From positions 15,748,001-15,812,000 of the forward strand of contig NC_083235.1 of NCBI RefSeq assembly GCF_032191835.1: a stretch of 64,000 nt of DNA, read 5' to 3'. Shown one piece after another: positions 9,001-12,000 of this stretch; position 1 is the stretch's first letter; the number at the start of each line of letters is the position of its first letter. This DNA comes from Heteronotia binoei. Taxonomy: Eukaryota. Position numbers: made by a program.

Positions 9001-12000
9001 CCCAGCTGTGCCACGGAAGTTTGCAGGACAACTTGGGGCCAGCCACGTTATTGTAACTTAACGTACCCCACAGTGTAAGTCATGTTGGGCCCCCATTTGG
9101 AGAGGAAAATGAGGTAAAATGAAGTAAATAAATTAGTGAGGAAGTAAAGCGTAAGGTGGGACCTTGTACCAGCTATTACAACAGAGACTTTTAGAAAAAG
9201 GCATTCAGAAGGAAGACCCTCCAAGGGCGTTCTGAGGGAGGACCATCTAAAGACATTCAGAAGGAAGTCCCTCCAAGGGCATTCAGAGAGAGGCCCATAT
9301 AACGACATTCAGAAGGAAGTCCCTCCAAGGGCGTTCTGAGGGAGGACCATCTAACGACATTCAGAAGGAAGTCCCTCCAAGGGCATTCAGAGGGAGGTCC
9401 ATCTAAAGACACTCAGAAGGAAATCCCTCCATGGGGATTCAGAGGGAGGTCCATCTAAAGATATTCAGAAGGAAGTCCCTCCAAGGCATTCAGAGAGAGG
9501 TCCATCTAAAGGCATTCAGAAGGAAGTCCCTCTAAGAGCATTCAGAGGGAGGTCCATCTAAAGGCATTCAACAGGAAGTCCCTTCAAGCGGGGAGGTCCA
9601 TTCAGAGAGAGGTTCATCTAAGGGGAAGGTCTTACATGCTAGTCAGGGTAGCTACCCCACCATCCATCACTGCTCTACACGAGCTATTCTATGCCACTTT
9701 CACCCCATTCCTGGCCCCCAGTGTTGGCTGTCCAGATGTCCAGCCACTGGGTGCCCCCTGCCCCCAATCAGCCCCCCAACACCAAAGAGGGCAACAAACA
9801 AACAAAAACAATCCTGAGTGTTAATGTTCTGATAGGAAACAAGGGAGTGGGGAGGATATATTGTGCACCCAGTCTCTGACTCTTTCTTTGGGATCTCTTG
9901 CTGCTGTTCTATTCCAAACGTTTGTGTGTGTTAAAGAAGAATCATACCATAAACATGCTAATTTGCTTCAGCCTCTGGGGTCCTGTCTCAGAACTATTCC
10001 TCAAGAACTTCCGGTTTGGATTTCATGGAGAATTGACGAACTTTCCAGTGGGGGAGCTCACCAGACGCTCTATTCTGGACAGAGAAGGTGTTTTAATACC
10101 TGCTGTCTACATCATCTAGGCAAGATGATGGCCAAGATATGCTTAAAGTTCTGAGGAGAGGTACTTTGGCTAACGTGAAATCCCGTGTGTGTGTGTGTGT
10201 TTTTTGGCTTTGAAGAGTCTCCGGAAAAGTACCACTTCCAACGTTTATAGAGGTTATCTGGGGTTGTTAAATCGACATAAATTCAACGTGTGCCAAGCTT
10301 CTTAAGGGCTAATTAATCGTGGATGAGAAACAGACCAGTGTGTTTTATGTCGGGACTTCAAAGGTAAAGAGATTTTTATCTGTTGCTCCAGGACTAAATT
10401 GGGAAATATTTTGAAGGCAAACGAAGGTCTGGACACATAAACAACTTGTACTAATAAAGAAGGAGGAGGAGGGGGAAATCTTGGACTCAGTTAAACAGAT
10501 ATAAGGCTTAAAAAAGCAAAAGCTGATATTGTTTTGAATTTTTGTGGTCACTCCCCCCGAAAGTGGAAGAACTGCAGCTCAACAAGTCATTACAGGAAAT
10601 GACGTCTGGGCATGGGAACATCGTGAGACTTTACAACCATAGATAACAAGACTTTGTGGCAAGTGTAGGCGGAAGAGGCCATCAAGGGAAGGAAAAACTA
10701 CAGGTTTTTTTAAGCCCCTTTAGGACTAAACCATAGAGAAACATCGAGCACCATTTTGGAAATTATAACCCCTTTAAAAATTAATATCTGGACCCAGGGA
10801 CATAAAGGATGGCGATTTTGGGCTTTTCTTAAAGGGCATGCCGTAATCTACAACACTAGACCATTTAAAAAGAACTTGGTGACTTCAGTTGTAAAGTCTA
10901 TATTTATAATGGGCAGGCAGTCATGTCAGCCCAAAAACCATTACAGACAAGATCTAAGACACTAGAAGAGGGCTGATAAAAAAGAACAGACGGATACCAT
11001 GGAAGCTAGATTGTCTAATCTGATTCAAGATTCTATTAGTGATTGTAAGAAGTAATTAAAAAAAAGATATAGAAGTTCTCAGTAAAGAGTTTAAGTCAGT
11101 ATCCGAAAAAATCCAAGAGGTGGAAGAGAAAGTGAAAGACCATGATGAAAGAATTAATACAGTGGATTCCACTATTAAAAAATTTCAGGACAAAGCAGTA
11201 CTGCAGGACTGCAAATCAATGGAAAATCAGATACGTTTGAGAGGTGTGCCTGAAAAGGATGATGATTTAAGGAAATACATAATAAGGATTATTGCTGAAT
11301 ATGTTGGCAATGATCCTGAGGAGACTAATTACTTTTATGACTATATTTACAGGGTCAATTCAGAATATACAAGGGAAAATAAACTACCAAGAGATGTGGT
11401 AGTGAGATGTGTAAACAAGAGACTTGGTGGGAAGGATTCTAAGAACTATTCCTCAAGGGACGGCTCAGGAGGAAACCTGGCTGAGCCATTCTCTGGGTAT
11501 CACATCCCTGAAGGGTGCCAAGCCATGAACAAAAGCTCATGCAGCTACCAGACCACCTTCTCTTCATGCAATAGCTGTTTGTCAGATCTGCTCAGCAGAA
11601 GGAGGCTTGTGTTAACCCAGAGGAAAAAGCCAAATATATTCCCTCCATCCTGATCTCTCCGTGGGATGGTCCCTCCGTTCTTCAACACCTACAGACTCAC
11701 AGACTCACAGACTCTGCTGCTGCTGCAAACAGAAAGCATCTTTTTGGGGTAGACTTTACCAACTGGGTAAGTAGGAGCCCTGCACGCACTTTTCTTCTTG
11801 TGTTCTCAGAGAAAAAAATGCTTCTCTGTCAGAACATTGCTCATTCTAACTGCCATCTCCTCATCTGTAGACAGCTTCTCAAAGCAGGAGACAGTGAGTA
11901 GTGTGTCCACTGCCATTGAGCAGTGAACAAAATGGAGCTGCCTCATGTCCTTTCTGATGGGTGTCATCGGGAGGAGGAAGAGCCATGGGAAGGGGGGGGA

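What the first reader, a model, noticed from the sequence alone, without database searches (positions are those of the whole stretch)
9990..11457. 5'-intact, 3'-truncated, tail-less L1 with a perfect 16-bp TSD inserted in a putative OR promoter
Seen: 1436 bp with an L1-type 5' end and half of ORF1, stopping abruptly; no ORF2 or poly(A), yet flanked by an exact TSD. Units A (about 1350-1366) and C (about 32697-32712) show the empty site. Known: TPRT normally gives 5'-truncated, tailed copies; internal priming is a rare documented route. Inference: internal priming, possibly on microhomology at the target's agaac. The TSD overlaps an O/E-like site, which is regenerated downstream, so about 1 kb of sense L1 promoter now sits directly upstream of the presumed OR-B exon 1.
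Basis: partly seen in the sequence, partly recalled or inferred. Interest (0 to 1): 0.65.

Follow-up and report, generated by a model that had tools for sequence, protein, structure and literature searches.

The report
Tail-less, 3'-truncated L1 copy in gecko
A 1.4-kb front piece of an L1 jumping gene, with no tail and flanked by a perfect 16-base duplication, sits upstream of a gecko smell-receptor gene; it is a clean example of a rare but already described kind of insertion.

Summary
A 1436-bp insert (10006-11441) lies between two exact copies of AGAACTATTCCTCAAG. Two paralogous units in the window (1351-1366 and 32697-32712) show the uninterrupted site.

The insert is L1. Its 127-codon open stretch matches a profile of 69 ORF1p-like proteins at 131.8 bits, and a family profile hits solved LINE-1 ORF1p structures at E 2.7e-13. 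The match stops about three quarters of the way through the RNA-binding domain. There is no ORF2 and no A-tail.

The 5' end looks complete: its terminal ACTTCCGGT also starts a duplication-bounded, full-length L1 at 47083.

The best explanation is endonuclease-made target-primed reverse transcription that was primed inside the L1 RNA. This is a "tailless retropseudogene" as described by Noll et al. 2015, who counted 90 such L1 copies in human and found tailless forms in a lizard. Support for priming on microhomology is weak.

The O/E site is not supported, and the promoter role was not tested. The receptor coding exon lies 18 kb downstream.

Other copies in the genome could not be searched, so a non-autonomous family, a later deletion or an assembly collapse remain open. 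New member of a known kind; modest interest.

The parts
9990..10005 (.). Left copy of the target-site duplication, AGAACTATTCCTCAAG
   Evidence: Exact 16-mer. Continuous with the unit A and unit C sequence to its left.
10006..11441 (+). Inserted L1 fragment, 1436 bp, absent from paralogous units A and C
   Evidence: empty sites. (no other copy in the window). GC 38.7%, CpG observed/expected 0.43.
10007..10015 (+). 5'-terminal motif ACTTCCGGT, one base in from the junction, shared with the 5' terminus of the full-length L1 at 47083
   Evidence: 3 matches in the window against 0.15 expected; 0 of 100 shuffles reached 3..
10006..10998 (+). Presumed 5' UTR, 993 bp, no detectable relative
   Evidence: No Rfam match within the insert at E<=1.
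10999..11441 (+). ORF1 remnant: end of the coiled coil plus about three quarters of the RNA-binding domain. Broken by one frameshift, possibly a second. No in-frame stop in the 127-codon homologous stretch. The 3' end is cut off.
   Evidence: The profile match has outer bounds 11060-11425.
11442..11457 (.). Right copy of the target-site duplication
1351..1366 (.). Empty site in paralogous unit A (15 of 16 bases)
32697..32712 (.). Empty site in paralogous unit C (16 of 16 bases)
47083..54303 (+). Comparator: full-length L1 with a 16-18 bp duplication, AATAAA, an A-tail of about 11 and an uninterrupted 1252-codon ORF2. Its 5' terminus is GACTTCCGGT.
14794..20990 (+). Comparator: L1 nested in a CR1-like element, with a 12-16 bp duplication and an A-tail of about 11

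Best explanation
The insert is a retrocopy of the 5' part of an L1 transcript, made by ordinary endonuclease-dependent target-primed reverse transcription, except that the nicked target primed inside the RNA (within ORF1) instead of on the poly(A) tail. The bottom strand was nicked at top-strand TC/AGAAC. Its 3' end annealed to an internal stretch of the L1 RNA. Reverse transcription then ran to the RNA's 5' end, and a second nick 16 bases away gave the duplication. The product is 5'-complete, 3'-truncated and tail-less, which matches the 'tailless retropseudogene' class. Shown: the insertion, the duplication, the empty sites, L1 ORF1p identity, the truncation point and the missing tail. Inferred: the priming step, the microhomology and the completeness of the 5' end.
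For: The exact 16-bp duplication and two empty paralogous sites lie within the 7-20 bp range given for L1 TPRT (Sen et al. 2007, passages). The two other duplication-bounded L1s in the window have duplications of 12-16 and 16-18 bp. The full-length L1 at 47083 was also inserted at a TC/A site, top-strand CTC/AACTG. ORF1p homology: 143 library proteins at E<=1e-3; 131.8 bits to a profile of 69 of them that excludes the query; family profile to LINE-1 ORF1p structures 2ykp, 2yko, 2ldy and 2w7a at E 2.7e-13 to 6.8e-7. The match covers profile positions 75-197 of 317, whereas the RRM-only structure covers 131-219. The 5'-terminal 9-mer is shared with a full-length L1. Read in the +1 frame, the last bases of the insert plus the first two codons of the duplication fit the next ORF1p profile columns better than 97-99% of random window peptides, as expected if the L1 RNA itself read AGAAC-like there. 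The class is published: L1-mobilised, 5'-complete, 3'-truncated, TSD-flanked, with target/RNA complementarity; 90 such 5'-full-length L1 copies counted in human; present in the green anole (Noll et al. 2015, passages).
Against: No parent or sister copy could be examined, so the bases of the L1 RNA beyond the break are unknown. The frame test is weak: two alternative frames were tried, the stretch is five to seven codons, and hmmsearch itself gave no positive match in that frame. In the main frame the last five codons score like random sequence (upper-tail fraction 0.80). The target TC/AGAACTA matches the published tailless consensus TT/WAAAAWW at only 6 of 9 positions (my count). An AATAAA lies 58 bases before the 3' end, so a prematurely cleaved RNA is an alternative template. 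The ORF1 remnant has at least one frameshift, so the template may not have been a competent element. 10 of 140 tblastn alignments run past 11441 into the flank. I read these as overhang through an open frame, because the same flank is present in the empty units.
Confidence: 0.55

Rival explanations
1. A canonical, longer L1 with an A-tail inserted here, and a later deletion removed everything from mid-ORF1 to the end of the tail. The deletion may have used microhomology between an internal AAGAAC-like stretch and the tail/duplication junction.
For: The single A before the right repeat could be a tail remnant. The same weak sign that the L1 read AGAAC-like at the break would also serve as deletion microhomology. 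Noll et al. note that internal priming and recombination between oligo(A) stretches are hard to tell apart for Alu.
Against: The right breakpoint would have to fall within a base or so of the tail/duplication boundary of an element several kb long. Both canonical L1s in the window keep A-tails of about 11. The duplication is untouched, 16 of 16.
Confidence: 0.12
2. The template was already short. Either it was an L1 RNA cleaved after the internal AATAAA (or otherwise truncated) and primed at the very base of a minimal tail, or it was the transcript of a non-autonomous L1-5' family whose members all end here and are moved in trans.
For: AATAAA lies 58 bases upstream of the end, and there are four poly(A) hexamers in all. 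ORF1 carries a frameshift, which fits trans mobilisation. A third copy of the 5'-terminal 9-mer lies at 13375-13383 (-) with no ORF1 behind it, so short L1-5' pieces may be common here.
Against: There is no tail at all, although the duplication is perfect and so the insertion is young. 58 bases is long for the signal-to-cleavage distance (recalled, about 10-30). There is no second copy of the insert in 64 kb. The best library relative of the ORF1 stretch is 41% identical, and 0 of 367 longer candidates scored. The piece at 13375 shares only about 12 bases and lies in an unresolved mosaic.
Confidence: 0.15
3. Assembly artefact: a longer L1 was collapsed or mis-joined at this locus.
For: The window has five N runs, and L1s are hard to assemble.
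Against: The nearest N run is about 6.8 kb away (3055-3211). Both junctions are clean and the right flank resumes exactly at the duplicated 16-mer, which a random mis-join would not produce.
Confidence: 0.05
4. The template had an internal deletion or splice that joined mid-ORF1 to the start of ORF2, and priming occurred a few codons into ORF2.
For: The last 16 bases match the ORF2 start of the L1 at 50367-50382 at 13 of 16 positions. ORF1p profile homology in the main frame ends just before them.
Against: Matches this good are expected 0.72 times per window by chance, and three non-self ones were found. The two L1s share no detectable ORF1 similarity. This needs two rare events 16 bases apart. 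The ORF1-continuation reading explains the same bases at the expected profile columns.
Confidence: 0.05

Closest known systems
Tailless retropseudogenes / tailless L1 copies (Schmitz et al. 2004, recalled; Noll et al. 2015, PMC5322556, passages read)
   Same: 5'-complete, 3'-truncated by far more than 10 nt, no oligo(A), a duplication within their 8-35 nt screen, and no gap between the element end and the duplication. They are attributed to TPRT primed internally. Reported for L1 itself in human (90 5'-full-length copies) and for small RNAs in the green anole.
   Different: The target only partly fits TT/WAAAAWW. The host is a gecko. Complementarity between the target and the source RNA could not be checked for lack of a parent copy.
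Canonical L1 TPRT insertion
   Same: Duplication length, a pyrimidine/purine nick context, sense L1 sequence and a 5' end like that of a full-length neighbour.
   Different: Canonical copies keep the 3' UTR and A-tail and lose the 5' end. This copy does the opposite. Both canonical L1s in the window have AATAAA plus about 11 A.
Endonuclease-independent (non-classical) L1 insertion (Sen et al. 2007, PMC1920257, passages read)
   Same: 3' truncation and no poly(A).
   Different: Those insertions are defined by the absence of any duplication and by divergence from the nick consensus, and 18 of 21 are also heavily 5'-truncated. Here the duplication is a perfect 16 bp.
HAL1, half-L1 (Kojima 2018, PMC5753468, passage read; Bao and Jurka 2010, cited there, not read)
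   Same: An L1 derivative that keeps the ORF1 side and lacks ORF2.
   Different: HAL1 encodes a whole ORF1p and forms multi-copy families. Here ORF1 stops inside the RNA-binding domain, and no second copy was seen.

Membership tests
L1 (LINE-1) retrotransposon | ORF1p of the coiled-coil / RRM / C-terminal-domain type | tested here: met
   Partial: end of the coiled coil plus RRM positions up to 197, where the RRM-only structure spans 131-219. Pfam gave no family for the query. Transposase_22 was found only below its cut-off, in 4 of 25 relatives scanned. The query alone against solved structures: top hit LINE-1 ORF1p at E 0.06, not significant.
L1 (LINE-1) retrotransposon | ORF2 with endonuclease and reverse transcriptase | tested here: not met
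   No ORF2-like DNA between the insert and 17038. This copy is a fragment.
L1 (LINE-1) retrotransposon | 3' UTR ending in an A-rich tail | tested here: not met
   One A before the right repeat; the longest A run (8) is internal.
L1 (LINE-1) retrotransposon | Target-site duplication of 7-20 bp | tested here: met
   16 of 16 exact, with two empty sites.
Tailless retropseudogene (criteria of Noll et al. 2015) | 5' end complete to within about 5 nt | tested here: inconclusive
   Supported only by the terminal ACTTCCGGT shared with the full-length L1 at 47083. No parent copy was available.
Tailless retropseudogene (criteria of Noll et al. 2015) | 3' truncation of at least 10 nt, no oligo(A), duplication of 8-35 nt at 70% identity or more, at most 15 nt between element end and duplication | tested here: met
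   Criteria as read.
Tailless retropseudogene (criteria of Noll et al. 2015) | Target site complementary to the source RNA at the breakpoint | tested here: inconclusive
   Upper-tail fractions 0.028 and 0.0105 for an ORF1 continuation into the duplication. No DNA of the parent was available.
Endonuclease-independent L1 insertion | No target-site duplication of any length | tested here: not met
   A perfect 16-bp duplication. Criterion as read.
HAL1-like non-autonomous L1 derivative | Complete ORF1p coding capacity | tested here: not met
   The match ends at profile position 200 of 345.
HAL1-like non-autonomous L1 derivative | Many copies sharing the same ends | not testable with these tools
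   0 further copies in the 64-kb window. No collection holding eukaryotic genomes was open.
Olfactory-receptor promoter with an O/E site | Match to the O/E decamer (recalled consensus) at the site | tested here: not met
   23 matches within one mismatch in the window against 27.6 expected, none on either repeat copy.
Olfactory-receptor promoter with an O/E site | Transcription start or first exon at this place | not testable with these tools
   No expression data. The site lies 2.8, 18.1 and 3.9 kb upstream of the receptor start codons in units A, B and C.

The most novel reading that the evidence does not exclude
The fragment is one member of a tail-less, non-autonomous 'front-half L1' lineage in geckos. 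Such a lineage would carry an ETS-like transcription-start motif and about 1 kb of L1 promoter, spread by internal priming at a preferred site in ORF1, and here supply a new sense promoter to a young olfactory-receptor duplicate.
Probability: 0.06. Interest if true: 0.6.

Novelty: new member of a known kind. Interest (0 to 1): 0.28.

Why it matters
This is an unusually clean natural example of L1 reverse transcription started away from the poly(A) tail. Both junctions are exact, two empty sites lie in the same window, and canonical tailed L1s from the same genome sit beside it as controls. Such cases show that the tail is not strictly needed for L1 integration. It also extends the evidence from mammals and the anole to a gecko. 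A regulatory effect on the receptor gene would add interest but is untested.

Tried and rejected
- **Other copies in the window.** blastn with word 7 and tblastx found only the insert itself plus one weak coiled-coil hit at E 0.007.
- **Pfam on the ORF1 stretch.** No family.
- **Word-indexed protein search for longer relatives.** 0 of 367 candidates scored.
- **Rfam on 9800-13600.** Nothing in the insert. Three sub-threshold miRNA-like matches fall on a palindrome at 12717-12841.
- **hmmsearch of the other two frames of 11060-11500.** No positive score.
- **Direct comparison with the two in-window ORF1s.** E 0.002 at 18% identity, and E 12.
- **Bacterial-type promoter and terminator scan.** Uninformative for a eukaryote.
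- **Likeness of the last 16 bases to an ORF2 start.** Kept only as a low-probability rival.
- **Terai et al. 2010 (PMC2831318, abstract only).** It concerns tailed short pseudogenes, so it is not the right comparison.

Full report
**Setting.** The window carries four uninterrupted olfactory-receptor ORFs (4122-5087, 29605-30570, 36620-37585, 57737-58765; Pfam 7tm_4, E 6e-53 to 1e-57). It also carries many retroelements: two L1s, CR1-like elements, and Ty3/Gypsy-like and Copia-like pol or gag ORFs. The protein of the ORF at 29605 is listed as the window's own, on an 83,113,065-bp contig that also holds NCBI-named Heteronotia binoei receptors; the best of these is 86% identical. I therefore take the window for a gecko chromosome, not for human. 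The five N runs lie far from the finding and were left alone. I built no spliced model of the receptor gene and joined no exons.

**The observation.**
- AGAACTATTCCTCAAG occurs at 9990, 11442 and 32697 and nowhere else. With four more bases to the left the repeat is 19 of 20.
- The self-comparison shows three paralogous units. Unit A 713-1366 and 1347-1693, and unit C 31952-32712 and 32693-32999, align to the left and right flanks of unit B. The two alignments overlap on the repeat.
- In the four-way alignment, A and C run straight through a single copy of the site.
- The insert is therefore 10006-11441, 1436 bp. It arrived after the B/C duplication, whose flanks are 88-90% identical.
- Nothing else in the window resembles the insert.

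**What the insert is.**
- An ATG at 10999 opens a short frame. The ORF1p-like reading continues in another frame as an open 127-codon stretch. ORF1 thus has one frameshift and no in-frame stop within that stretch.
- The stretch finds 143 proteins at E<=1e-3 in the 1.84-billion library: 25 at <=1e-10, none at <=1e-30, best identity 41%.
- I scanned 25 of the 143 with Pfam. None reaches a curated cut-off for an L1 family. 4 show Transposase_22 below its cut-off, and 2 carry an endonuclease domain downstream.
- A profile of the query, 19 relatives and the in-window ORF1 at 14908 hits LINE-1 ORF1p structures first: 2ykp 2.7e-13, 2yko 4.2e-13, 2ldy 1.5e-12, 2w7a 6.8e-7. After these come only generic coiled coils, from 2.9e-5. 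The query alone gives 2ykp at E 0.06, which is not significant.
- A profile of 69 of the 143 (those of 230-460 aa), built without the query, scores the stretch at 131.8 bits over positions 78-200 of 345.
- On the first profile the query covers positions 75-197 of 317, while the RRM-only structure covers 131-219 and the three-domain structure runs to 263. ORF1 therefore stops about three quarters of the way through the RNA-binding domain, and the C-terminal domain is missing.
- Of 140 tblastn alignments on the insert, all are in one frame. 83 end at 11419-11425. 10 run past 11441, through a frame that happens to stay open into flank also present in the empty units.
- No ORF2-like DNA lies nearer than 17038, and there is no A-tail.

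**The 5' end.** The window holds two L1s whose ends are fixed by duplications.
- One, at 14794-20990, is nested in a CR1-like element. It has a 12-16 bp duplication and AATAAA-type signals followed by about 11 A.
- The other, at 47083-54303, has a 16-18 bp duplication, AATAAA, about 11 A and an uninterrupted 1252-codon ORF2. Its first bases are GACTTCCGGT. The insert begins AACTTCCGGT.
- ACTTCCGGT occurs three times in the window against 0.15 expected, and 0 of 100 shuffles reached three.
- Beyond this motif the two 5' regions do not align, and their ORF1s are unrelated at the protein level.
- I take the motif as a conserved start element and the insert as 5'-complete, with moderate confidence. 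From recall, its reverse complement resembles an ETS-class site; this was not tested.

**The 3' junction.**
- The nick implied by the duplication is top-strand TC/AGAAC. The full-length L1 at 47083 used CTC/AACTG, and the one at 14794 used a classic TTT/AAAA.
- In the main frame, the short terminal stretch after the profile match scores like random sequence at the next profile columns (-10.6 bits, upper-tail fraction 0.80).
- Read in the +1 frame it scores +1.3 bits (fraction 0.028). With the first two codons of the duplication added it scores +2.8 bits (fraction 0.0105).
- This is weak evidence, from five to seven codons and two frames tried. It suggests that ORF1 runs to the junction with a possible second frameshift, and that the L1 RNA itself read AGAAC-like there, which is what priming on microhomology predicts. 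hmmsearch alone saw nothing in that frame.
- The same 16 bases also match the ORF2 start at 50367-50382 at 13 of 16 positions. Matches of that quality are expected 0.72 times per window, so I keep this only as a minor rival.

**Mechanism.** The structure fits the published class of tailless retropseudogenes. They describe:
- L1-mobilised copies that are 5'-complete, 3'-truncated, without oligo(A) and flanked by duplications.
- An explanation by internal priming, with complementarity between target and RNA and a target consensus of TT/WAAAAWW.
- A human count of 708 full-length L1s, 90 3'-truncated and 5,593 3'/5'-truncated tailless L1 forms, all flanked by duplications.
- The green anole as the only non-mammal in which tailless forms were found.

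Endonuclease-independent insertion is excluded as a label, because it is defined by the lack of any duplication (Sen et al. 2007, passages). HAL1 is excluded because it encodes a whole ORF1p (Kojima 2018, passage). The remaining rivals are a later deletion reaching exactly to the tail/duplication boundary, a short template (an AATAAA lies 58 bases before the end) or a family ending at this base, and an assembly collapse. None can be settled without other copies or reads. No collection of eukaryotic genomes was open.

**The receptor-promoter part.**
- The recalled O/E decamer has 23 matches within one mismatch in the window against 27.6 expected, and none lies on either repeat copy.
- The matches near the units fall instead in the 52-bp tandem arrays 400-560 bp upstream (784, 9428, 32134, 32186, 32238).
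- The site lies 2.8 kb (A), 3.9 kb (C) and 18.1 kb (B) upstream of the receptor start codons. Unit B (9243-30659) is collinear with unit C (31952-37673) but has been stretched by nested insertions.
- The insert has the same orientation as the receptor gene. It carries four sense-strand poly(A) hexamers, and its CpG observed/expected ratio is 0.43.
- Whether it drives or blocks any transcript is untested.

**Verdict.** It is most likely a tailless L1 retrocopy made by internal priming. That is a new member of a known kind, in a lineage where few have been described.

Noticed in passing
window 9197-9588; also about 735-975 and 31909-32300: A tandem array with a 52-bp period (26-bp half-period) and 7.6 copies sits 400-560 bp upstream of the insertion site in unit B and recurs in units A and C. 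It contains the window's O/E-like decamers nearest to the units.
   Followed up: partly
window 13308-13384 (-): A third copy of the L1 5'-terminal motif (AACTTCCGGTCT...) lies on the minus strand. It is followed after about 65-77 bases by an unrelated repeat also found at 59362-59513, with no ORF1 behind it. It may be a second very short L1-5' piece in an unresolved mosaic.
   Followed up: partly
window 12651-12906: A long inverted repeat with arms 91.5% complementary, which looks like a hairpin-forming MITE. It gives miRNA-family matches well below their gathering scores (mir-6095: 53.7 against 100 bits).
   Followed up: no
window 14139-22960: A CR1-like element (endonuclease ORF 14139-14867; reverse-transcriptase ORFs 21186-22960) is split by the nested L1 at 14794-20990, which has its own duplication and A-tail.
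   Followed up: partly
window 47083-54303: A full-length L1 with an uninterrupted 1252-codon ORF2. Its ORF1 region runs into a long simple repeat and an antisense reverse-transcriptase ORF (48355-49569), apparently another nested element.
   Followed up: no
window 23530-26632 and 40149-42730: Ty3/Gypsy-like ORFs (protease, RNase H, integrase) and Copia-like ORFs (gag, RVT_2), each spread over several separate ORFs. These are the virus-like stretches of the window. They are described only; their breaks were not counted.
   Followed up: no
window 9243-30659 compared with 31952-37673: Receptor unit B is collinear with unit C but 21.4 kb long against 5.7 kb, because of at least four insertion blocks. 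The receptor ORFs themselves stay open and the coding regions are about 96% identical.
   Followed up: partly
library proteins P0099 and P0119: Two ORF1p relatives are predicted as fusions of an ORF1 front part with an L1 endonuclease domain. In P0099 the ORF1 part stops within a residue or two of where the insert's homology stops. This could be a gene-prediction artefact or a real deletion derivative.
   Followed up: no
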